The notes under the pieces: generated by a model
Told to the model about the DNA's origin: nothing
Databases searched by the model: none
Seen by the model: only the letters and a program-made list of their open reading frames with translations
In this document: positions 1 through 48,379 of the stretch, piece by piece
How the letters are laid out: each line of letters opens with the position of its first letter
Numbering within the stretch: position 1 is the first letter of the stretch
NCBI RefSeq assembly: GCF_003334385.1
Contig: NZ_QOWN01000008.1
DNA length: 64,000 bases
Strand: one strand, 5' to 3'
Source of the DNA: Escherichia coli
GTDB lineage: Bacteria; Pseudomonadota; Gammaproteobacteria; Enterobacterales; Enterobacteriaceae
Made by a program: the position numbers and the translations under genes

Positions 1-3000
1 AACCCAGCCGCGTCTGAATATCATCACCCTGCGATTGTGACACGCGCGCACGGTTAGCGGCGGTAAAATCATCCTGCTGCACGCCCTGATAAATCACCTG
101 CGCCTGCGGTTCAATCACCACACCACGCCCCGGTAACCACTGATACCCCGCCTCCAGCGAGGCGATAATCCCCGACGAGTGGTAATGATCTGTGCCATCT
201 TCTTGTTCGGAAACATCATTGCTAAACCACGCGTATTGCAGCCAGCTATCCAGCCAGGCCCCTTGCTTCTGATTACCGTGCTGAAACCAGCTTGATGTCA
301 GCCCAACGGCATAACCGTGGTTCTGGTTATCGGCGCGAGTTCCGGTCATATTCGAGCGGCTGTCGCCCTGGTTATCGCTGTAGCCACCAACAATCCCAAG
401 CATCCACTCGCCATCCGTGCCCCAGCGCCCGCTAAACAGATCGCCGCTAAGTTGCACCGTAGAAGTGTCTTCATGTTGAGCCAGTTGCCCCGCTGCTGTG
501 TAATGATAATCTCCGCCGATAACACGTAAATTCAGCGTCTGACCATCGCCACCTGCGTGATCGCGTCGCTCCATCATAAACGCCTGATTTGCCGCCCGCA
601 GGTTATTGAGATAACCGCCAACTTTGGCATTCAACACCGGCTGGTAAGCAGGCGTAGGTTCCGGGTCGGGTGTTGGATCAGGATCCGGCGTGGGATCAGG
701 ATCGGGAGTCGGGTCTGGATCAGGTGGCGATGGCGGCGTTACTTCTTGCGATCGCAGATACCAGTCGTTGTTATCTTCCACCAGCGTGTAGTCATACGCT
801 CCCATATTGACGTAGCCGCTGCCTGCCAGACTGAACTGCGCATTGTTTTGAAACTGCGTGGGATCAGCTGCGAAATCAACCACTTTAATGCCTGTCGATG
901 TCGGCTCACCAATCCCTGTAATGGAGTTAACCACCACAGTTGTGTTGCCAGCAGTATTACCGTTCATCACCAATTGATCGCTTACCGAGTCATCGCCGTT
1001 TAATTCGCTATCGAGCAGTAGCGTACCGCCGCCGGTATAATCACCGTTTACCGTCAGCGTATCGCCAGCGACGCCATTTTGCAGGCTAACCGCACCGGAC
1101 GTATTGGTCAGATTGCCATTAACCGTCACGTTGGAAAGATAAGTCAGGCTGTCAGTTTCAAGGTTGGTATTAAGCTCACCTGTCAACGTCACACCATCGG
1201 TGGCATTCACCAGCGTCCCATCGCCGTTAAATAGTGAGGCATTAAGGGCGACGGAAGTATCCTGCCCGGTCAGGCGCAAAACCGTACCATCGCTGATGTC
1301 GATAGTGCCGCTGGAAATAGCATCAATTGACTGAATATCCTGATCCGCGCCAGTAACGAACGTTGCCCCATCACCAACCCACAGTGACGAAGCATAAGGA
1401 AGGATATCAGCAACATCACCTTTCAGGGTGCCTTCTTCGACACGTACCGCCGACTGCGTTGTACCGCTGGCGGTCAGCTCCAGTGTACCAGCCCCCGTTT
1501 TAGTCAATGTGCTACCCTCATCCTGATGCTGCCCGCTGCTGTCAGCCATCAGTGCGCCCCACTGCGTGTCTACCCCCGCATCAACTGCCACTTCACCGTC
1601 GGCGCGCATTTCAATATCACGTCCGTGGCCTGCCGCATCTGAACGCGTGTCAACGTCGGAGGTAATCTCCATCACGCTTTCTTGTTGCTTATCGGTAAAG
1701 ATAACCTGGCGGTTATAGTGGGTATCTCCAAGCTGCGAGTTGTCGCTCACCATCAGCGTACCGGAGGCGATTTGTGTTGTGCCCAAATAACTATTATTGT
1801 TTGCCAGACTTACCTGCCCGTCGCTCGCATCGACCACCACGTAGACGCCATCTTTCCCGTCGCCGCCGATATGCAAATTGTCGCCACCTGCAAGATCTAC
1901 CACATCCTGACTGCCGATAACCGTTCCGCTGCTGCCACTGACTTCAAGGCCATCGTTGTATGATGTGCCGCTCTGCCAGGTGGAGAAATCAGAGAGATCG
2001 AGCACACCGCCGTTTAACACGATCGACTGCGGATCGTCCTGGAGAGCGGTAAGATCTGCCGCGTCGCCTTCCAGCGAAAGCACCGCACCATCATCAACGA
2101 CTATATCGCCGGTTAGCGCCATCGACTGCGCCCCTGCCAGCACGTAGCTGCCGTTTTGCGCAATGGTGAGCTGACCAGCACCTTCGATGATGCCAGCAAA
2201 ACTGCCCTGATTAACAGTAACGTTGCCACCAGCATCGATATTTAAAGTGCCATTCTGAAAGCCCGTCAATGCGTGCACAAAAGTTTGTTGGGTCGAGCCA
2301 ACGTTTAGCTCAGCCTGATTCTGATACTGATCAATACTCCCTATCGTCAGACCGTAGCAGTCTTGCGGATCGTCCTGGCAATGCGTATCGCCGACATTCA
2401 TCAGGGAGTTGCTGCGGCCCAGGGTAACTTCACCGTTTTCAATCTGCATCTCACCAGTAAAGTCATTGTTATCTGCATTAAGTACCAGATCGCCGGAACC
2501 TGTTTTGGTGATTAACCCGGTACCAGCAATAGAGTCAACAGCTCCGTCATTCTCTGTATTGCCAATAACCAGCGTTTTTCCGTCGGCAATATCAAAGGTA
2601 ACTTCACTTAAGCCGAGATACATAAAGCCACCCGCCGCAGAGGAAGGACCATCTCCATAGCCTGCTGCGCTATTGTTCTCATCGACTAACACGCCTCCGT
2701 TCTGGCTGTAGCTGTCATCAACAGAAATATCAATAAGATAGGGAGCCGTCACGCTATTGGTATATATCGCCCCGCCATAACCTTCGGCAGTGTTATTTGT
2801 AAAGGCAGTGTTATTTACTATCGTATAACCTGAAGGATGCTTGCTGTCGCTATTATTATCGGTAACATCGATTGCCCCGCCATCGCCATCACTGTAACTT
2901 GTTGATGTATATGCCTGGTTGTTATCAAAAATAACATCACTTAAATAAACGTCATTATTAATGGTATAAATTGCGCCACCTTTGCCATCATTAGCGATGT

Positions 3001-3493
3001 TATTGCGAAACATGGCGTTAGTGACACGTAAATCGACGGCACCAGTATCGTTAGTACCAGAAGAATAGATTGCGCCACCATAGCCGCCTGCGACGTTACC
3101 GGAAAAAATAACATCAGTAAGATTCAGCGTTGAGTTTTCTTTAGCAAATATGGCCCCGCCGTTATTATATTCTCCTGTAACGGTGTTATTGGCAAACAGA
3201 GTCATTCCAGTTTCATTTTCTGGTAATAGTGAAAATTCCGCTCCTTGTTGCAAAAATACGGCCCCACCGCTGGCGTTATTGGTCATATCCGAAAAAACCA
3301 GCCATTGCCCATCAGCGATACTCCAGTCCTGCGTAATGCCTGAAAGGCTTTGCCTGCTGGCCTGACAACTCGCTTTGACATCATATCCCTGGCATGAATC
3401 AGTGACCGCCGCGACACCGTTAGCAGAGAAAAGAGATGCAATCATTGACGGGAGTAAAGATAAATACTCCTTGCGTAGAAAGATAATCCGCAT
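1..3493 (-). CDS. yfaL: Autotransporter adhesin YfaL, partial (C-terminal beta-barrel end runs off the window start); start codon ATG at 3493
   Basis: Continuous minus-strand reading frame across 1..3493; translation begins MRIIFLRKEYLSLLPSMIASLFSANG (signal peptide) followed by Gly/Asn/Thr-rich beta-helix-like repeats and a Pro-Asp-Thr linker, matching recalled YfaL. Not listed in the ORF track because it is truncated by the window edge. Confidence 0.88.
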   Translation of the reverse strand, partial: MRIIFLRKEYLSLLPSMIASLFSANGVAAVTDSCQGYDVKASCQASRQSLSGITQDWSIADGQWLVFSDMTNNASGGAVFLQQGAEFSLLPENETGMTLFANNTVTGEYNNGGAIFAKENSTLNLTDVIFSGNVAGGYGGAIYSSGTNDTGAVDLRVTNAMFRNNIANDGKGGAIYTINNDVYLSDVIFDNNQAYTSTSYSDGDGGAIDVTDNNSDSKHPSGYTIVNNTAFTNNTAEGYGGAIYTNSVTAPYLIDISVDDSYSQNGGVLVDENNSAAGYGDGPSSAAGGFMYLGLSEVTFDIADGKTLVIGNTENDGAVDSIAGTGLITKTGSGDLVLNADNNDFTGEMQIENGEVTLGRSNSLMNVGDTHCQDDPQDCYGLTIGSIDQYQNQAELNVGSTQQTFVHALTGFQNGTLNIDAGGNVTVNQGSFAGIIEGAGQLTIAQNGSYVLAGAQSMALTGDIVVDDGAVLSLEGDAADLTALQDDPQSIVLNGGVLDLSDFSTWQSGTSYNDGLEVSGSSGTVIGSQDVVDLAGGDNLHIGGDGKDGVYVVVDASDGQVSLANNNSYLGTTQIASGTLMVSDNSQLGDTHYNRQVIFTDKQQESVMEITSDVDTRSDAAGHGRDIEMRADGEVAVDAGVDTQWGALMADSSGQHQDEGSTLTKTGAGTLELTASGTTQSAVRVEEGTLKGDVADILPYASSLWVGDGATFVTGADQDIQSIDAISSGTIDISDGTVLRLTGQDTSVALNASLFNGDGTLVNATDGVTLTGELNTNLETDSLTYLSNVTVNGNLTNTSGAVSLQNGVAGDTLTVNGDYTGGGTLLLDSELNGDDSVSDQLVMNGNTAGNTTVVVNSITGIGEPTSTGIKVVDFAADPTQFQNNAQFSLAGSGYVNMGAYDYTLVEDNNDWYLRSQEVTPPSPPDPDPTPDPDPTPDPDPTPDPEPTPAYQPVLNAKVGGYLNNLRAANQAFMMERRDHAGGDGQTLNLRVIGGDYHYTAAGQLAQHEDTSTVQLSGDLFSGRWGTDGEWMLGIVGGYSDNQGDSRSNMTGTRADNQNHGYAVGLTSSWFQHGNQKQGAWLDSWLQYAWFSNDVSEQEDGTDHYHSSGIIASLEAGYQWLPGRGVVIEPQAQVIYQGVQQDDFTAANRARVSQSQGDDIQTRLG
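655..735 (-). repeat. In-frame tandem short repeat encoding a (PDPDPT)n-like Pro/Asp/Thr linker inside yfaL
   Basis: Plus-strand text ggatcaggatccggcgtgggatcaggatcgggagtcgggtctggatcagg; minus-strand translation ...PPDPDPTPDPDPTPDPDPTPDPEPTP. Coordinates approximate. Confidence 0.6.
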
Positions 3494-4026
3494 ATTAATC
3501 TAACCATCATTTTCTATAAGACGGCGTATTTAATCGCATTATACGATATGGAATATCTTTCTTTTGTAAATTGTTCAACCCGGTGCAATGGCTATTTTGT
3601 TATTATTTGATGAATAATATCAGTGCGTCATAATTCAAGTTAATAACCTTCAGGGATATCAGTTATATTTAAACTAAATTAAAGTCATGAATAATTTTCT
3701 TATAATATAAGGTAAATTAACAAAATGGCTTAGCATTTAACAATAACCGAATAGAAAACAACCATTTCGCCATCAACAATCTCTTACATTCGCTTATATA
3801 TTGACCACAACTGATACATCAGATTATGTGATGACTCGTGCTTAGATCAATTTTTGCAATCATTAGCAAAAAGATTAATAAACCATCTATATCAATTTAT
3901 CTAACCTATTATGCCGTTCAAGAAATCGCCGAACAGTTATTTTTAACAAATTTTTCTCTTCCCATTGACTTTCCCGGACACCTTGTCTGACCTAAGGTGC
4001 GCGAAAGCCACTTTTTCCTTCCTGAG

Positions 4027-4047
4027 TTATCCACAAAGTTATGCACT
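4027..4047 (+). promoter_or_regulatory. Two DnaA-box-like sites in the nrdA promoter region (TTATCCACA at 4027-4035; TTATGCACT at 4039-4047)
   Basis: Exact match to DnaA box consensus TTATCCACA followed by a near-match, about 150 bp upstream of the nrdA ATG; nrdAB is known to be DnaA-regulated. Confidence 0.6.
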
Positions 4048-4064
4048 TGCAAGAGGGTCATTTT

Positions 4065-4112
4065 CACACTATCTTGCAGTGAATCCCAAACATACCCCCT
4101 ATATATAGTGTT
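4065..4112 (+). promoter_or_regulatory. Two putative NrdR boxes (cacactatcttgcagtg at 4065-4081; ccctatatatagtgtt at 4097-4112) spaced about 32 bp centre-to-centre
   Basis: Palindromic AT-core boxes resembling the NrdR consensus (acaCwAtATaTwGtgt) immediately upstream of nrdA; spacing of about three helical turns is typical. Matching done by eye. Confidence 0.45.
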
Positions 4113-4188
4113 CTAAGCAGCTTCCCGTACTACAGGTAGTCTGCATGAAACTATTGCGGAAAGAATTCCAAAAACAGGTACGACATAC

Positions 4189-6474
4189 ATGAATCAGAAT
4201 CTGCTGGTGACAAAGCGCGACGGTAGCACAGAGCGCATCAATCTCGACAAAATCCATCGCGTTCTGGATTGGGCGGCAGAAGGACTGCATAACGTTTCGA
4301 TTTCCCAGGTCGAGCTGCGCTCCCACATTCAGTTTTATGACGGTATCAAGACCTCTGACATCCACGAAACCATTATCAAGGCTGCCGCAGACCTGATCTC
4401 CCGTGATGCGCCGGATTATCAGTATCTCGCCGCGCGCCTGGCGATCTTCCACCTGCGTAAAAAAGCCTACGGCCAGTTTGAGCCGCCTGCGCTGTACGAC
4501 CACGTGGTGAAAATGGTCGAGATGGGCAAATACGATAATCATCTGCTGGAAGACTACACGGAAGAAGAGTTCAAGCAGATGGACACCTTTATCGATCACG
4601 ACCGTGATATGACCTTCTCTTATGCTGCCGTTAAGCAGCTGGAAGGCAAATATCTGGTACAGAACCGCGTGACCGGCGAAATCTATGAGAGCGCCCAGTT
4701 CCTTTATATTCTAGTTGCCGCGTGCTTGTTCTCGAACTACCCGCGTGAAACGCGCCTGCAATATGTGAAGCGTTTTTACGACGCGGTTTCCACATTTAAA
4801 ATTTCGCTGCCGACGCCAATCATGTCCGGCGTGCGTACCCCGACTCGTCAGTTCAGCTCCTGCGTACTGATCGAGTGCGGTGACAGCCTGGATTCCATCA
4901 ACGCCACCTCCAGCGCGATTGTTAAATACGTTTCCCAGCGTGCCGGGATCGGCATCAACGCCGGGCGTATTCGTGCGCTGGGTAGCCCGATTCGCGGTGG
5001 TGAAGCGTTCCATACCGGCTGCATTCCGTTCTACAAACATTTCCAGACAGCGGTGAAATCCTGCTCTCAGGGCGGTGTGCGCGGCGGTGCGGCAACGCTG
5101 TTCTACCCGATGTGGCATCTGGAAGTGGAAAGCCTGCTGGTGTTGAAAAACAACCGTGGTGTGGAAGGCAACCGCGTGCGTCATATGGACTACGGGGTAC
5201 AAATCAACAAACTGATGTATACCCGTCTGCTGAAAGGTGAAGATATCACCCTGTTCAGCCCGTCCGACGTACCGGGGCTGTACGACGCGTTCTTCGCCGA
5301 TCAGGAAGAGTTTGAACGTCTGTATACCAAATATGAGAAAGACGACAGCATCCGCAAGCAGCGTGTGAAAGCCGTTGAGCTGTTCTCGCTGATGATGCAG
5401 GAACGTGCGTCTACCGGTCGTATCTATATTCAGAACGTTGACCACTGCAATACCCATAGCCCGTTTGATCCGGCCATCGCGCCAGTGCGTCAGTCTAACC
5501 TGTGCCTGGAGATAGCCCTGCCGACCAAACCGCTGAACGACGTCAACGACGAGAACGGTGAAATCGCGCTGTGTACGCTGTCTGCTTTCAACCTGGGCGC
5601 AATTAATAACCTGGATGAACTGGAAGAGCTGGCAATTCTGGCGGTTCGTGCACTTGACGCGCTGCTGGATTATCAGGATTACCCGATCCCGGCCGCCAAA
5701 CGTGGAGCGATGGGTCGTCGTACGCTGGGTATTGGTGTGATCAACTTCGCTTACTACCTGGCGAAGCACGGTAAACGCTACTCCGACGGCAGCGCCAACA
5801 ACCTGACGCATAAAACCTTCGAAGCCATTCAGTATTACCTGCTGAAAGCCTCTAATGAGCTGGCGAAAGAGCAAGGCGCGTGCCCGTGGTTTAACGAAAC
5901 CACTTACGCGAAAGGGATCCTGCCGATCGATACCTATAAGAAAGATCTGGATACCATCGCTAATGAGCCGCTGCATTACGACTGGGAAGCTCTGCGTGAG
6001 TCAATCAAAACGCACGGTCTGCGTAACTCCACGCTTTCTGCTCTGATGCCGTCCGAGACTTCTTCGCAGATCTCTAACGCCACTAACGGTATTGAACCGC
6101 CGCGCGGTTACGTCAGCATCAAAGCGTCGAAAGACGGTATTTTGCGCCAGGTGGTGCCGGACTACGAGCACCTGCACGACGCCTATGAGCTGCTGTGGGA
6201 AATGCCGGGTAACGATGGTTATCTGCAACTGGTGGGTATCATGCAGAAATTTATCGATCAGTCGATCTCTGCCAACACCAACTACGATCCGTCACGCTTC
6301 CCGTCAGGAAAAGTGCCGATGCAGCAGTTGCTGAAAGACCTGCTCACCGCCTACAAATTCGGGGTCAAAACACTGTATTATCAGAACACCCGTGACGGCG
6401 CTGAAGACGCACAAGACGATCTGGTGCCGTCAATCCAGGACGATGGCTGCGAAAGCGGCGCATGTAAGATCTGA
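4189..6474 (+). CDS. nrdA: Class Ia ribonucleoside-diphosphate reductase alpha subunit (761 aa)
   Basis: ORF track 4189..6474; translation [32 protein letters not shown]... ending ...[11 protein letters not shown] matches recalled NrdA, including the C-terminal Cys pair. Confidence 0.97.
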
Positions 6475-24341: not shown

Positions 24342-24944
24342 TTAGTGGTTAACGAATTCCCCATCCAGATAAACTTTGCCTTTTTCCACATGCATGACTA
24401 AACCATCCAGATAATCAGGTTTAAATGTCGCGTCACGCTTATCTTTAGCAATATATGTCAGGCAATGATTATGGGTGAAAATAACGATATTTTTATCAGG
24501 CGCTTTGCTTTGTAAGTCCTTAATTGCACTATAAATCTCATTACCGCACTGAAGAAGTCGTTTATCTACCGTCAATTTTTTACCCGCTGAAAACCAGGTA
24601 GCCGACTGAATGGTCCGGACGGTATTACTGGAATAAAGATCGAAATCAGGGATATCAGCACTAAAAGCGTTGCCCAGTTCACGGGCATCCTGGGTACCTT
24701 TAACCGTAATACCTGTTTTATCTGACAAGCATTGATTGGTTGAACGGTCGCAACGTTCAGCATGACGAAACAAAACGACAACCGGGTGCTGCTGTGCCAG
24801 TCTGGCCAGTGTTTTATTGTCGATACGTGGCAAACCATTGCTACTCCAGGCGGCATGAGTACCCAGTCCGGCAATTGCAGCGAGCGCCAGTAAAATGATG
24901 ATATATTTTTTTGACTTCAACGAAGAGCGGCAAAAAGCTAACAC
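24342..24944 (-). CDS. ais: Aluminium-inducible, PmrA-regulated lipopolysaccharide core heptose(II)-phosphate phosphatase Ais/PmrG (200 aa); GTG start
   Basis: Annotated-length product ([26 protein letters not shown]...) requires a GTG start at 24944; the ORF track extends in frame to 24971. Histidine-phosphatase motif RHAER present. Confidence 0.85.
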
Positions 24945-25136
24945 GTAAACTCCACCTATAGACAAGCGCAACCAGACAATTACCGTGAAATTGAGCTACA
25001 TTTCTGGCGATAATTCGCAGTTGGTGTAATATTAAAAATCCTACGATGTCGGCAAAATGCCTCAAAATTTTGCCAAATGCAAAGCCTAAATAAGAAAAAA
25101 TATAAAAATTTCAATATTTACGTCTAATATTAGTTT

Positions 25137-25153
25137 CTTAAGGTTAAGTTAAT
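25137..25153 (+). promoter_or_regulatory. PmrA (BasR) box-like direct repeat CTTAAG-gttaa-GTTAAT upstream of arnB
   Basis: Hexamer repeat with 5-bp spacer resembling the PmrA box (YTTAAK-N5-YTTAAK), about 80 bp upstream of arnB; arn is the canonical PmrA-activated operon. Confidence 0.55.
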
Positions 25154-25233
25154 ATTCTATCCTTAAAATTTCGCTCCAAATGGCAAAATATACACAACAC
25201 TCTTTATAGCAAATATAAGTGGACAGGTATTCA

Positions 25234-26391
25234 ATGGCGGAAGGAAAAGCAATGTCAGAATTTTTGCCTTTTTCGCGACCAGCAATGGGCGTGGAGGAAC
25301 TCGCTGCAGTTAAAGAGGTTCTCGAATCCGGTTGGATCACAACCGGTCCGAAGAATCAGGCGCTTGAGCAAGCTTTTTGCCAGTTGACGGGAAATCAGCA
25401 TGCCATCGCGGTCAGTTCAGCCACCGCCGGAATGCATATCACGCTAATGGCGTTGAAAATTGGCAAGGGCGATGAAGTGATTACGCCTTCCCTGACCTGG
25501 GTTTCAACCCTCAATATGATTTCCTTGTTGGGTGCAACGCCGGTAATGGTGGATGTCGACCGCGATACGCTGATGGTCACGCCTGAAGCTATCGAGTCAG
25601 CCATTACGCCACGCACTAAAGCCATCATTCCGGTGCATTATGCCGGTGCGCCAGCAGATATTGACGCCATTCGCGCCATTGGCGAACGTTACGGCATCGC
25701 AGTTATCGAAGATGCTGCCCATGCCGTCGGTACGTATTACAAAGGGCGACATATTGGCGCAAAAGGTACCGCTATTTTTTCATTTCATGCCATTAAAAAT
25801 ATTACCTGTGCTGAAGGTGGCCTGATTGTAACTGATAATGAAAACCTTGCCCGCCAGCTACGGATGCTGAAATTTCACGGTCTGGGTGTCGATGCCTATG
25901 ACAGACAAACCTGGGGCCGTGCACCGCAGGCTGAAGTCTTAACACCGGGCTATAAGTACAATCTGACCGATATTAACGCCGCGATTGCCCTGACACAGTT
26001 AGTCAAATTAGAGCACCTCAACACCCGTCGGCGCGAAATTGCCCAGCAATATCAGCAAGCACTGGCAGCTCTCCCCTTTCAGCCATTAAGCCTTCCCGCC
26101 TGGCCGCACGTTCACGCCTGGCATCTGTTTATTATTCGTGTCGATGAACAACGTTGTGGTATCAGTCGCGATGCGTTGATGGAAGCGTTAAAAGAAAGAG
26201 GCATTGGTACCGGGTTACATTTCCGCGCCGCTCACACACAAAAATATTATCGCGAGCGTTTTCCCACGCTGTCGTTACCGAATACCGAATGGAATAGCGA
26301 ACGCATCTGTTCTTTGCCGCTGTTCCCGGATATGACTACCGCCGATGCCGACCATGTCATCACAGCCCTTCAGCAACTCGCAGGACAATAA
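25234..26391 (+). CDS. arnB: UDP-4-amino-4-deoxy-L-arabinose--oxoglutarate aminotransferase (385 aa from this start)
   Basis: ATG at 25234 ([26 protein letters not shown]...); the ORF track uses a GTG at 25219; another in-frame ATG lies at 25252. DegT/ArnB-type PLP aminotransferase. Confidence 0.93.
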
Positions 26392-47748: not shown

Positions 47749-47902
47749 GTCAAACCCCTTTAAATATTTATGATATTAAATATAACAACGTCTGGATAAC
47801 GACCCGGCCTGACTGAATATCTCACGTTTTCCTGCTTAACATTCATGTTATGATGCTCTTGAAACTAATAATACGTATGGAATTGTCACTATTTATCTGC
47901 TA

Positions 47903-48379
47903 ATGAATTCAAACAATGTCATTCGTTTGATGAATATATTATTTCAGGGAATAATTATGACACCTTTAGAACGCATTACCCAACTTGTTAATATCAATGG
48001 TGATGTTAATAATCCTGATACTCCTCGTCCATTGTTATCTCTTGAGGATTTTTTTATTGACAATAATATCCATGGTTCAATATGTTGCAATGTGATTCCA
48101 GAACAATCTCCGCAAGCTATCTATCACCATTTTCTGAAAATACGTGAGCGTAACAATGTTAGTGATGTTTTGGTAGAAATTACGATGTTCGATGACCCAG
48201 ACTGGCCCTTTAGTGAAAGTATTTTAGTTATCACCACTGCTTCACCAGAAGAAGTTCAGAGCTGGTTTGTAGAAGAAATTGCCCCTGATGAGTGCTGGGA
48301 AGGATGGTCAGAAGATACGGAGCATGGATGGGTTGAAGTCCCTGTGGGTATGCATCCGGTTACTTGTTGGTGGGATTAA
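47903..48379 (+). CDS. yfbO: Uncharacterised protein YfbO (158 aa from 47903; 140 aa if started at the in-frame ATG at 47957)
   Basis: ORF 47903..48379; acidic, Trp-rich C-terminus (...ECWEGWSEDTEHGWVEVPVGMHPVTCWWD); start codon uncertain. Confidence 0.78.
   Translation: MNSNNVIRLMNILFQGIIMTPLERITQLVNINGDVNNPDTPRPLLSLEDFFIDNNIHGSICCNVIPEQSPQAIYHHFLKIRERNNVSDVLVEITMFDDPDWPFSESILVITTASPEEVQSWFVEEIAPDECWEGWSEDTEHGWVEVPVGMHPVTCWWD

What the first reader, a model, noticed from the sequence alone, without database searches (positions are those of the whole stretch)
3494..4188. Long (about 700 bp) AT-rich divergent control region between yfaL and nrdA with DnaA and NrdR box-like sites
The yfaL-nrdA intergenic region is unusually long and AT-rich. 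It contains an exact DnaA box (TTATCCACA, 4027-4035), a second near-box, and two palindromic NrdR-box-like sites spaced about three helical turns apart just upstream of nrdA. This is consistent with the known complex regulation of nrdAB. The distal 500 bp has no assigned function from what I can see and could host additional sites or a small transcript.
Basis: partly seen in the sequence, partly recalled or inferred. Interest (0 to 1): 0.25.

Follow-up and report, generated by a model that had tools for sequence, protein, structure and literature searches.

The report
E. coli yfaL–nrdA control region
This is the well-studied control region in front of the E. coli ribonucleotide reductase genes (nrdAB), joined to an AT-rich stretch bound by the silencing protein H-NS that belongs to the neighbouring adhesin gene yfaL, so it is ordinary and already described.

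Summary
Window 3494-4188 is the 695-bp yfaL/nrdA spacer of E. coli, identical to strain B and one base different from K-12. It is the longest and most AT-rich spacer in this part of the window.

The region has two parts.

- **Proximal part (about 3918-4188):** the nrdAB control region. It holds a conserved upstream block, HusR sites, tandem DnaA boxes against the -35, a weak promoter and NrdR boxes in the leader. A 2025 study shows NrdR binds box 1 plus a newly recognised downstream box 2, not the classical box 0 plus box 1 pair.
- **Distal part (about 3494-3917, 29% GC):** it does have an assigned role. It is a catalogued "promoter island", bound by H-NS in all ChIP-chip studies compiled in the promoter-island catalogue, and contains the predicted yfaL promoter. 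It lies next to yfaL only in Escherichia and one close relative. Its sequence evolves fast, while its length and AT content are kept.

I found no support for a conserved small RNA or small protein. The annotated ypaB ORF is broken in relatives.

Side observations: Escherichia's DnaA/NrdR box layout differs from all other sampled Enterobacteriaceae, and phages P1 and P7 carry a 94%-identical copy of the promoter-upstream segment.

Verdict: already known, low interest.

The parts
3494..3917 (.). Distal AT-rich segment (about 29% GC). It is linked to yfaL, contains the yfaL promoter and long leader, and is an H-NS platform.
   Evidence: GC. Absent from the ubiG-nrdA spacer of other genera. Only 36-70% identical between Escherichia species, while length and GC are kept.
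3445..3978 (.). Catalogued 'promoter island' 2342143_534 (yfaL/ypaB), given in U00096.2 coordinates and mapped to the window with offset 2338698.
   Evidence: PMC3661553 Table 1 and Methods: H-NS-bound in all the ChIP-chip studies it compiled and associated with foreign genes. All 9 sigma-70-like sites of my scan lie within 3543-3850, against 3.6 +/- 1.9 in shuffles. The offset uses the U00096.2 position of nrdA recalled from memory; it is cross-checked by the HusR peak and.
3823..3850 (-). Predicted yfaL sigma-70 promoter TTGATC-16-CATAAT. It would give a yfaL leader of about 320 nt.
   Evidence: Found by the scan. The same hexamers are listed for yfaL in RpoD genomic SELEX, with an H-NS flag (PMC3946193). 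The only GATC in the spacer (3845) lies in its -35. The transcription start has not been mapped experimentally here.
3842..3904 (.). Imperfect inverted repeat TTAGATCAATT / AATTTATCTAA. Between the arms is a smaller palindrome around TTTTTGCAATCATTAGCAAAAA, which I read off the sequence at about 3851-3872.
   Evidence: Inverted-repeat pairs I4 and I8. Both I4 arms are the only matches in the spacer with 2 or fewer mismatches to the H-NS motif TCGATAAATT. It may correspond to the published AT-rich inverted repeat needed for cell-cycle control, but those papers could not be read.
3918..3962 (+). Conserved upstream block GTTCAAGAAATCGCCGAACAGTTATTTTTAAC..., about -161 to -117 from the nrdA start. 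It is the probable upstream activating region (Fis and AT-rich sites).
   Evidence: It aligns with CGTTTAATAAA.CGGCAAACGATCA of Yersiniaceae and related families, and with GAAGAAATCAGCACTCGATCA of other Enterobacteriaceae. The assignment to Fis rests on memory of Augustin et al. 1994, not on a tool result.
3918..4061 (-). Annotated ORF ypaB (47 aa). It overlaps the nrdA upstream sites and is probably not a conserved protein gene.
   Evidence: RefSeq annotation. The start codon is CTG in the divergent E. coli allele, there is an in-frame stop in E. albertii, and there is a stop in a plasmid copy. CRISPRi effects on ypaB are explained by blocking the nrdA promoter.
3974..3989 (+). HusR (YnfL) motif CCGGACACCTTGTCTG.
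   Evidence: PMC12844172 Table 1. Exact match located.
4009..4024 (+). Second HusR motif CACTTTTTCCTTCCTG.
   Evidence: The genomic SELEX peak at 2,342,734 maps to window 4036.
4027..4035 (+). High-affinity DnaA box TTATCCACA, about -52 to -44.
   Evidence: The exact 9-mer is present in nearly all of the roughly 100 Enterobacterales leaders classified.
4039..4047 (+). Second DnaA box TTATGCACT. It abuts and overlaps the -35 hexamer.
   Evidence: direct repeat D2, 12-bp spacing.
4047..4075 (+). nrdAB core promoter: -35 TTGCAA (4047-4052), 17-bp spacer, -10 TATCTT (4070-4075). The transcription start is near 4079.
   Evidence: The hexamers are conserved across families with the E. coli-type layout. 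Box 0 is said to cover the -10 and the transcription start. The 110-nt leader is from memory of Tuggle and Fuchs 1986. The promoter matches only 8 of 12 consensus positions, so the scan does not list it.
4064..4079 (+). NrdR 'box 0', the classical upstream box, which NrdR does not bind.
   Evidence: PMC12176259: box 0 plus box 1 has KD above 6000 nM.
4096..4111 (+). NrdR box 1, CCCCTATATATAGTGT.
4127..4142 (+). NrdR box 2, GTACTACAGGTAGTCT. [quoted passage not shown]
   Evidence: PMC12176259: box 1 plus box 2 has KD about 113 nM. Located.
4079..4188 (+). nrdA 5' leader, about 110 nt.
   Evidence: No Rfam family matches. The divergent E. coli allele has a 13-bp deletion at 4157-4169.
3940..4065 (+). 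Segment shared at 94.4% identity with phages P7, P1 and SJ46, and present on P1-like plasmids.

Best explanation
The spacer is a composite of two regulatory regions that became neighbours when yfaL came to lie between ubiG and nrdA in the Escherichia lineage.

**Proximal part, about 270 bp (3918-4188): the nrdAB control region.**
- A weak sigma-70 promoter, TTGCAA-17-TATCTT, depends on upstream activating DNA (the conserved block at 3918-3962).
- It is modulated by DnaA at two tandem boxes that touch the -35. Published work indicates that high DnaA-ATP represses.
- HusR acts at about -105 to -55.
- dATP/ATP-loaded NrdR binds box 1 plus box 2 in the transcribed leader.

**Distal part, about 425 bp (3494-3917): yfaL's own upstream region.**
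- It holds a predicted promoter at 3850->3823 and a leader of about 320 nt.
- This lies inside a 29%-GC 'promoter island' that attracts RNA polymerase and H-NS and is kept largely silent.
- Function here depends on base composition and length, not on a specific sequence.

**Shown here:** the coordinates, composition, motif positions, lineage distribution, conservation pattern and lack of coding constraint.

**Taken from the literature:** protein binding by H-NS, RpoD, HusR, NrdR and DnaA.

**Inferred:** that the island silences yfaL, and that it arrived together with yfaL.
For: Identity and annotation.

Motif coordinates.

NrdR biochemistry: (PMC12176259).

HusR genomic SELEX, gel shift and RT-qPCR.

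Promoter-island catalogue with H-NS occupancy.

RpoD genomic SELEX with H-NS flag and the yfaL promoter hexamers. These match my scan, which found 9 promoter-like sites, all in 3543-3850, against 3.6 +/- 1.9 expected.

Lineage distribution:
- Nearly all sampled Enterobacterales have ubiG followed directly by nrdA, 335-610 bp apart.
- yfaL lies between them only in Escherichia, plus a distant homologue in one Rahnella species.
- The E. coli ubiG flank is REP elements followed by yfaL. Other genera go straight from the ubiG terminator to the conserved block.

Conservation:
- Proximal 3935-4184 is 82-98% identical among Escherichia species. Distal 3494-3934 is 36-70% identical.
- GC of about 29% and a length of about 700 bp are kept in E. 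coli, E. albertii, Escherichia sp. SCPM and metagenome-assembled genome (MAG) L060.
- The core promoter, DnaA box and NrdR box 1 are conserved across five families.
Against: - I could not read the original footprinting papers (Tuggle and Fuchs 1986; Augustin 1994; Sun 1994; Jacobson and Fuchs 1998; Cendra 2013). The exact positions of the Fis and IciA sites, the AT-rich or 45-bp inverted-repeat element and the H-NS sites at nrdA rest on memory or secondary citation.
- No TSS or RNA-seq data were available, so the yfaL promoter and the silence of the island at this particular locus are not directly shown.
- RT-qPCR detected HusR-dependent 'ypaB' RNA upstream of the nrdA start. Some transcription therefore crosses 3918-4061.
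- yfaL itself has near-average GC (51%), so its foreign origin is inferred from distribution, not from composition.
Confidence: 0.85

Rival explanations
1. The distal AT-rich part is functionally part of nrdAB regulation. It would be an extended upstream element, such as an H-NS nucleation site, curved DNA or a cell-cycle element, that sets nrdAB expression rather than only serving yfaL. This overlaps with the best explanation and does not exclude it.
For: Reviews list H-NS as a repressor of E. coli nrdAB, and Fis, IciA and DnaA as activators. [quoted passage not shown] An AT-rich inverted repeat lies at 3842-3904. The H-NS flag applies to the whole spacer.
Against: Other Enterobacterales run nrdA with only a 335-610 bp spacer from ubiG and no such island. 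Cross-family conservation stops at about 3888-3918. One natural strain carries an IS1 insertion at about 3525.
Confidence: 0.25
2. The distal region encodes a stable small RNA or a small protein. ypaB would be a real gene under this reading.
For: ypaB is annotated in RefSeq. 'ypaB' RNA is detected and depends on HusR in stationary phase. The region has many promoter-like sites. Promoter islands are reported to make 9-14-nt oligonucleotides.
Against: No Rfam match down to E = 1 and no terminator-like site. The distal sequence is barely alignable between Escherichia species. All ORFs in 3494-3917 are 24 aa or shorter. ypaB loses its ATG in the divergent allele examined (strain AR_0104); none of the four listed records in the roughly 1100-record 80-90% identity class carries a ypaB annotation. 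It has an in-frame stop in E. albertii, and its conserved part simply translates the DnaA boxes and promoter. CRISPRi phenotypes are explained by the nrdA promoter.
Confidence: 0.06
3. The distal part is functionless spacer left over from the insertion that brought yfaL.
For: It evolves fast and tolerates an IS1 insertion.
Against: Length of about 700 bp and GC of about 29% are kept in four diverged lineages although the sequence has turned over. RNA polymerase and H-NS occupancy are reported. It is present in 5424 of 5426 complete E. coli genomes.
Confidence: 0.08

Closest known systems
E. coli nrdAB promoter region (DnaA boxes, Fis/IciA/AT-rich upstream sites, NrdR boxes, H-NS, HusR)
   Same: It is this region. 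The window differs from K-12 MG1655 by one base across 3440-4200. The published NrdR oligonucleotide sequences and HusR motifs match exactly.
   Different: Nothing differs. The only update is that the functional NrdR pair is box 1 plus box 2 rather than the classical box 0 plus box 1.
Promoter islands of E. coli (Shavkunov/Panyukov/Ozoline), 78 AT-rich H-NS-bound regions next to horizontally acquired genes
   Same: The distal part is listed as island 2342143_534 yfaL/ypaB. It has dense promoter-like sites, H-NS occupancy and a lineage-restricted neighbouring gene.
   Different: Unusually, this island abuts the promoter of an essential, highly regulated housekeeping operon.
H-NS-silenced upstream regions of cryptic autotransporter and fimbrial adhesin genes (for example ycgV, another listed island; flu/Ag43)
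   Same: An AT-rich long leader upstream of an AIDA-I-type adhesin that is cryptic in K-12.
   Different: Direct evidence that H-NS represses yfaL was not found in the papers I could read.
nrdAB leaders of Salmonella, Citrobacter, Enterobacter and Erwiniaceae ('type B' layout)
   Same: They share the upstream block, two NrdR boxes and the high-affinity DnaA box TTATCCACA.
   Different: In those genera the DnaA boxes form an inverted pair in the leader, 13 bp downstream of the second NrdR box. In Escherichia they are tandem and lie upstream of the -35, as in Yersiniaceae, Morganellaceae and Budviciaceae.
Phage P1/P7 upfN-upfO-hot region
   Same: 125 bp at 94.4% identity to window 3940-4065, including both DnaA boxes and the -35. 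The similarity is already annotated in the P1 GenBank record.
   Different: The phage copy lacks the NrdR boxes and nrdA. A -10-like TATTGT replaces TATCTT. Its function there is unknown.

Membership tests
DnaA-box-regulated promoter | 9-mer matching TTATNCACA near the core promoter | tested here: met
   TTATCCACA at 4027-4035. A second box, TTATGCACT (one mismatch), is at 4039-4047 and abuts the -35.
DnaA-box-regulated promoter | Box conserved in orthologous promoters | tested here: met
   The exact 9-mer lies at a fixed distance from the NrdR box in nearly all leaders classified.
DnaA-box-regulated promoter | DnaA binds and changes transcription | not testable with these tools
   Literature only: Augustin 1994, Gon 2006 and Olliver 2010, as cited.
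NrdR operator | Two 16-bp partially palindromic boxes with conserved C4 and G13 | tested here: met
   Box 1 is CCCCTATATATAGTGT and box 2 is GTACTACAGGTAGTCT.
NrdR operator | Linker of 15-16 bp between the boxes | tested here: met
NrdR operator | High-affinity binding of dATP/ATP-loaded NrdR | not testable with these tools
   Published: KD about 113 nM for box 1 plus box 2, and above 6000 nM for box 0 plus box 1.
Promoter island | Region of 300 bp or more with an excess of promoter-like start points | tested here: met
   9 sites within 3543-3850 against 3.6 +/- 1.9 in shuffles. Listed as island 2342143_534.
Promoter island | H-NS and RNA polymerase occupancy with low productive transcription | not testable with these tools
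   Published ChIP-chip compilation and genomic SELEX. No locus-specific RNA data were available.
Promoter island | Association with a horizontally acquired gene | tested here: met
   yfaL lies between ubiG and nrdA only in Escherichia, plus one Rahnella homologue.
Known RNA family (sRNA, riboswitch, leader) | Match to an Rfam covariance model | tested here: not met
   No match with E up to 1 in 3000-4700 on either strand.
Protein-coding gene (ypaB) | Intact ORF maintained in close relatives | tested here: not met
   ATG changed to CTG in allele AR_0104, an in-frame stop in E. albertii, and a stop in plasmid pEC19.

The most novel reading that the evidence does not exclude
In the Escherichia lineage the whole nrdA upstream region may have been rebuilt by horizontal exchange.

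- A block carrying yfaL, its H-NS-bound AT-rich island and a 'type A' core promoter (tandem DnaA boxes upstream of the -35, as in Yersiniaceae and Morganellaceae) would have replaced the 'type B' leader found in every other sampled member of Enterobacteriaceae.
- A mobile element such as a P1-like phage-plasmid, which still carries a 94%-identical copy, might have been involved.
- As a result, DnaA control of dNTP synthesis in E. coli, the model for this regulation, would work through a different geometry from that of its closest relatives. H-NS bound next door would add a lineage-specific input.
Probability: 0.25. Interest if true: 0.4.

Novelty: already known. Interest (0 to 1): 0.13.

Why it matters
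The region matters biologically because it couples dNTP synthesis to replication initiation through DnaA, NrdR, Fis, H-NS and HusR. All of that is already in the literature.

This check adds four things:
- A clean two-part map in window coordinates.
- A correction of the NrdR box pair to box 1 plus box 2.
- The point that the "unassigned" distal half is the upstream region of yfaL, H-NS-bound and specific to the Escherichia lineage, rather than unexplored nrdA control DNA.
- The side observation that E. coli's DnaA/NrdR box geometry is atypical for its family. This is a caution for extrapolating E. coli nrdAB regulation to Salmonella or Klebsiella-like organisms.

Tried and rejected
- **Rfam at E up to 1 on 3000-4700:** nothing found.
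- **Terminator scan:** none found.
- **DnaA-box enrichment in the window:** none. 5 matches observed against 5.8 expected, so the motif alone proves nothing.
- **H-NS motif TCGATAAATT:** 2 hits in the spacer against 0.7 expected if uniform. This is too weak to use alone.
- **Small ORFs in the distal part:** all 24 aa or shorter and in unconserved sequence, so rejected.
- **ypaB as a real gene:** rejected on the broken ORFs.
- **Original Fuchs-lab and other papers:** PMC205367, PMC205060, Cendra 2013, Babu 2017 and the Thomason 2015 TSS map are not held.
- **blastn of E. coli upstream DNA against other Enterobacteriaceae:** initially appeared to fail. Direct reading showed that this reflects a truly different leader architecture, not a technical problem.
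- **A first layout classifier:** it mis-scored Shine-Dalgarno-proximal ACAGGTA as an NrdR core and was corrected.
- **Recent transfer of the nrdA coding region:** considered and rejected. The CDS is closest to Salmonella and Citrobacter from its first 300 nt onward.
Full report
**1. What is there**

Window 3494-4188 lies between the start codon of yfaL (minus strand, ending at 3493) and the ATG of nrdA (4189).
- The 695 bp are 100% identical to E. coli strain B and many other isolates. They occur in all 5426 complete E. coli genomes searched; 5424 of these hold at least 80% of the query.
- K-12 MG1655 has the same 695-bp spacer and differs by one base across 3440-4200.
- Coordinates convert as follows: window = NC_000913.3 minus 2340676 = U00096.2 minus 2338698. 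The second offset uses the U00096.2 position of nrdA from memory. It is consistent with the HusR peak and motif positions.

**2. Check of the observation**

- Composition: the spacer is 33.7% GC and its distal 457 bp are 28.7% GC, against 51.4% for the window. Only 0.14% of equally long windows are as AT-rich.
- Length: it is the longest of about 45 spacers in the first 50 kb.
- DnaA boxes: TTATCCACA is at 4027-4035 and TTATGCACT at 4039-4047, forming a 12-bp direct repeat.
- Chance: a lone DnaA 9-mer is expected by chance in 64 kb (5 found, 5.8 expected). The evidence that this one is real is comparative and from the literature.
- NrdR boxes: three NrdR-like boxes sit at 4064-4079, 4096-4111 and 4127-4142, which are 32 and 31 bp apart. 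Box 1 is the only good consensus match in the window.

**3. The proximal part (about 3918-4188)**

This is the nrdAB control region.

*Core promoter*
- The core promoter is TTGCAA (4047-4052), a 17-bp spacer, and TATCTT (4070-4075).
- It matches the sigma-70 consensus poorly (8 of 12 positions), so the scan does not list it. That fits its published dependence on activators.
- The transcription start is near 4079. This rests on a 110-nt leader recalled from Tuggle and Fuchs 1986, and on the statement that box 0 covers the -10 and the start.

*Positions relative to that start*
- DnaA boxes: about -52 to -32, touching the -35.
- HusR/YnfL motifs: 3974-3989 and 4009-4024, about -105 to -55. The genomic SELEX peak at 2,342,734 maps to window 4036.
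- NrdR box 1: about +18 to +33. NrdR box 2: about +49 to +64.

*NrdR binding*
- Rozman Grinberg et al. 2025 showed that dATP/ATP-loaded NrdR binds box 1 plus box 2 with KD about 113 nM. The classical pair, box 0 plus box 1, binds with KD above 6000 nM.
- A 2026 preprint confirms that box 0 is not recognised.

*Conservation*
- The order DnaA box, -35, -10, NrdR box 1 is conserved from Escherichia to Yersiniaceae, Hafniaceae, Budviciaceae, Morganellaceae and part of Pectobacteriaceae.
- A further upstream block (3918-3962) is conserved as well. It is also recognisable in Salmonella-type leaders.
- This block is where, from memory, the Fis and AT-rich activating sites were mapped. I could not read those papers.

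**4. ypaB**

RefSeq annotates a 47-codon ORF on the minus strand at 3918-4061.
- Its conserved residues are simply the translation of the DnaA boxes and promoter.
- The ATG is CTG in the divergent E. coli allele I examined (strain AR_0104). That strain stands for the roughly 1100 records at 80-90% identity. None of the four listed records of that class has ypaB annotated.
- E. albertii has an in-frame stop, and a plasmid copy has another.
- The fitness effects of dCas9 on ypaB were attributed by their authors to blocking the nrdA promoter.

I conclude there is no protein-coding constraint. HusR-dependent RNA over this segment was reported by RT-qPCR, so some transcription crosses it.

**5. The distal part (3494-3917)**

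It does have an assigned role.
- Window 3445-3978 is promoter island 2342143_534 (yfaL/ypaB) in the catalogue of 78 such regions (coordinates in U00096.2).
- The catalogue scores it as overlapping a GIST genomic island, as associated with foreign genes by two methods, and as H-NS-bound in all the ChIP-chip studies it compiled.
- As a class, these islands bind RNA polymerase and form open complexes but give little productive RNA, mostly 9-14-nt oligonucleotides.
- All nine sigma-70-like sites in my own scan fall within 3543-3850, against 3.6 +/- 1.9 in shuffles.
- One of them, TTGATC-16-CATAAT on the minus strand (3850->3823), is the promoter assigned to yfaL by RpoD genomic SELEX, where the spacer is flagged as an H-NS site. 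That would give yfaL a leader of about 320 nt.
- GadX and GadE are also reported to regulate yfaL.
- The only GATC in the spacer (3845) lies in that -35. GATC sites at yfaL were reported as differentially methylated in evolved clones.

**6. Where the distal part comes from**

I scanned one genome per species for the nrdA N-terminus and retrieved 120 Enterobacterales loci.
- In nearly all of them, gyrA (minus strand) and ubiG (plus strand) are followed directly by nrdA, 335-610 bp after ubiG.
- yfaL lies in between only in Escherichia: E. albertii and a second Escherichia species representative.
- A metagenome-assembled genome (MAG), L060, has an E. coli-like leader, a 28.7%-GC distal stretch and an autotransporter-like start codon about 700 bp upstream of nrdA.
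- A 52%-identical yfaL homologue lies about 700 bp upstream of nrdA in Rahnella bonaserana, but not in two other Rahnella species.
- In E. coli the ubiG 3' flank consists of REP elements and then the end of yfaL. In other genera the ubiG terminator is followed within about 60-90 bp by the conserved upstream block.

The extra DNA in Escherichia is therefore yfaL plus window 3494 to about 3917.

Among Escherichia species the proximal 3935-4184 is 82-98% identical. The distal 3494-3934 is only 36-70% identical, which is close to unalignable. Even so, its length (about 700 bp in total) and GC (about 29%) are kept. This points to selection on composition and length rather than on sequence. That is what an H-NS platform would predict, and it argues against a conserved small RNA, small protein or specific distal operator. 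One natural isolate carries an IS1 about 30 bp upstream of the yfaL ATG, together with a yfaL pseudogene.

**7. Mechanism**

Most likely (confidence 0.85), two control regions sit back to back.
- **nrdAB.** Upstream activation recruits RNA polymerase to a weak promoter. DnaA at the two boxes adjoining the -35 tunes it to the replication cycle; published work has high DnaA-ATP repressing. HusR activates in stationary phase. [quoted passage not shown]
- **yfaL.** The AT-rich island binds H-NS and traps RNA polymerase unproductively, which keeps the adhesin cryptic.

The anatomy, distribution and conservation are shown here. The protein binding comes from the cited papers. The silencing of yfaL by this island, and its co-arrival with yfaL, are inferred.

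A non-exclusive rival (confidence 0.25) is that H-NS nucleated on the island also contributes to the reported H-NS repression of nrdAB.

**8. Side observations**

*(a) Escherichia has an atypical DnaA/NrdR box layout for its family.* I classified leaders by the position of the exact DnaA box relative to the NrdR box core.

| Group | Type A: DnaA box 72-82 bp upstream of the NrdR core, before the -35 | Type B: DnaA box 13 bp downstream of the second NrdR box |
|---|---|---|
| Escherichia plus L060 | 4 of 4 | 0 |
| Other Enterobacteriaceae | 0 | 31 of 33 |
| Erwiniaceae | 0 | 21 of 22 |
| Yersiniaceae | 18 of 19 | 0 |
| Morganellaceae | 9 of 10 | 0 |
| Budviciaceae | 3 of 3 | 0 |
| Hafniaceae | 2 of 3 | 0 |
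| Pectobacteriaceae | 6 of 11 | 1 of 11 (a Pectobacterium) |

- The type B leaders examined also carry a second, inverted DnaA box about 30 bp further into the leader.
- The Escherichia version has one helical turn (10 bp) less between the two DnaA boxes than other type A leaders.
- The E. coli nrdA coding sequence is vertical. It is closest to Salmonella and Citrobacter (96.5% amino-acid identity, 85-91% nucleotide identity) from its first 300 nt onward.
- So only the upstream region disagrees with the species tree. Either it was exchanged horizontally, or the type B layout spread independently.
- The Salmonella layout has been drawn before. I did not find the contrast discussed, but my literature access was limited.

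*(b) Phages carry a copy of the promoter-upstream segment.*
- Phages P7, some P1 isolates and SJ46 carry window 3940-4065 at 94.4% identity, and 129 PLSDB plasmids have related copies.
- The P1 GenBank record already notes the similarity to the E. coli DNA region containing two predicted DnaA boxes.
- The copies keep the -35 and a -10-like TATTGT or TACTGT, but lack the NrdR boxes.

**9. Verdict**

The finding is real but describes one of the best-studied promoter regions of E. coli together with a catalogued H-NS-bound promoter island. Novelty: already known. Interest: low (0.13). The family-atypical promoter architecture and the phage copy are the only mildly unexpected items, and they lie outside the claim as written.

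Noticed in passing
window 4027-4142, compared with loci L005-L124: Escherichia (and MAG L060) places tandem DnaA boxes upstream of the nrdA -35, as Yersiniaceae, Morganellaceae and Budviciaceae do. 31 of 33 other Enterobacteriaceae and 21 of 22 Erwiniaceae instead have the DnaA box 13 bp downstream of the second NrdR box; those examined pair it with an inverted DnaA box further into the leader. The nrdA coding sequence itself follows the species tree.
   Followed up: partly
window 3940-4065; L127 (phage P1) 2001-2115; L128 (phage P7) 1501-1625; L002 4001-4115: Phages P7, P1 and SJ46 and about 129 P1-like plasmids carry a copy of the nrdA upstream segment (both DnaA boxes, the -35 and a -10-like hexamer, but no NrdR boxes), up to 94.4% identical. 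It lies next to hot/upfO/upfN. The P1 GenBank record already annotates the similarity. Its function there is unknown.
   Followed up: partly
window 3918-4061 (minus strand): The annotated gene ypaB has CTG instead of ATG in the divergent E. coli allele examined (strain AR_0104; none of the four listed records of that class has ypaB annotated). It has an in-frame stop in E. albertii. It looks like an ORF riding on conserved regulatory DNA.
   Followed up: yes
window 4157-4169: The divergent E. coli allele examined (strain AR_0104, from the class of about 1100 records at 80-90% identity) lacks 13 bp (CGGAAAGAATTCC) of the nrdA 5' leader. The listed matches of that class cover only query positions 1-663.
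   Followed up: no
L130 about 330-1105 (about window 3525): E. coli strain 23CRST009 has an IS1A inserted about 30 bp upstream of the yfaL start codon, and its yfaL is a pseudogene with an internal stop.
   Followed up: no
L074 (Rahnella bonaserana), about 700 bp upstream of nrdA: A 52%-identical yfaL-like autotransporter gene sits divergently about 700 bp upstream of nrdA, at the same spacing as in E. coli. Two other Rahnella species have ubiG there instead. Other genera (Mixta, Lonsdalea, Erwinia sp. S63, some Pantoea) have unrelated insertions of 1.8 to more than 6 kb at this junction, so the ubiG-nrdA spacer appears to be a recurrent insertion site.
   Followed up: no
window about 24928-25242 (ais/arnB spacer): By coordinate conversion this spacer is another catalogued promoter island (2363626_315 ais/arnB) within the same window.
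   Followed up: no
window about 47820-48320 (inside nuoM): This is the only other stretch of the window where 457-bp windows fall below 36% GC. It lies inside a coding region.
   Followed up: no
window 3845-3848: The single GATC of the whole 695-bp spacer (the window average is 4.2 per kb) lies in the predicted yfaL -35 hexamer and in one arm of an inverted repeat. Conserved GATC sites occur at the equivalent upstream block in other Enterobacterales.
   Followed up: no
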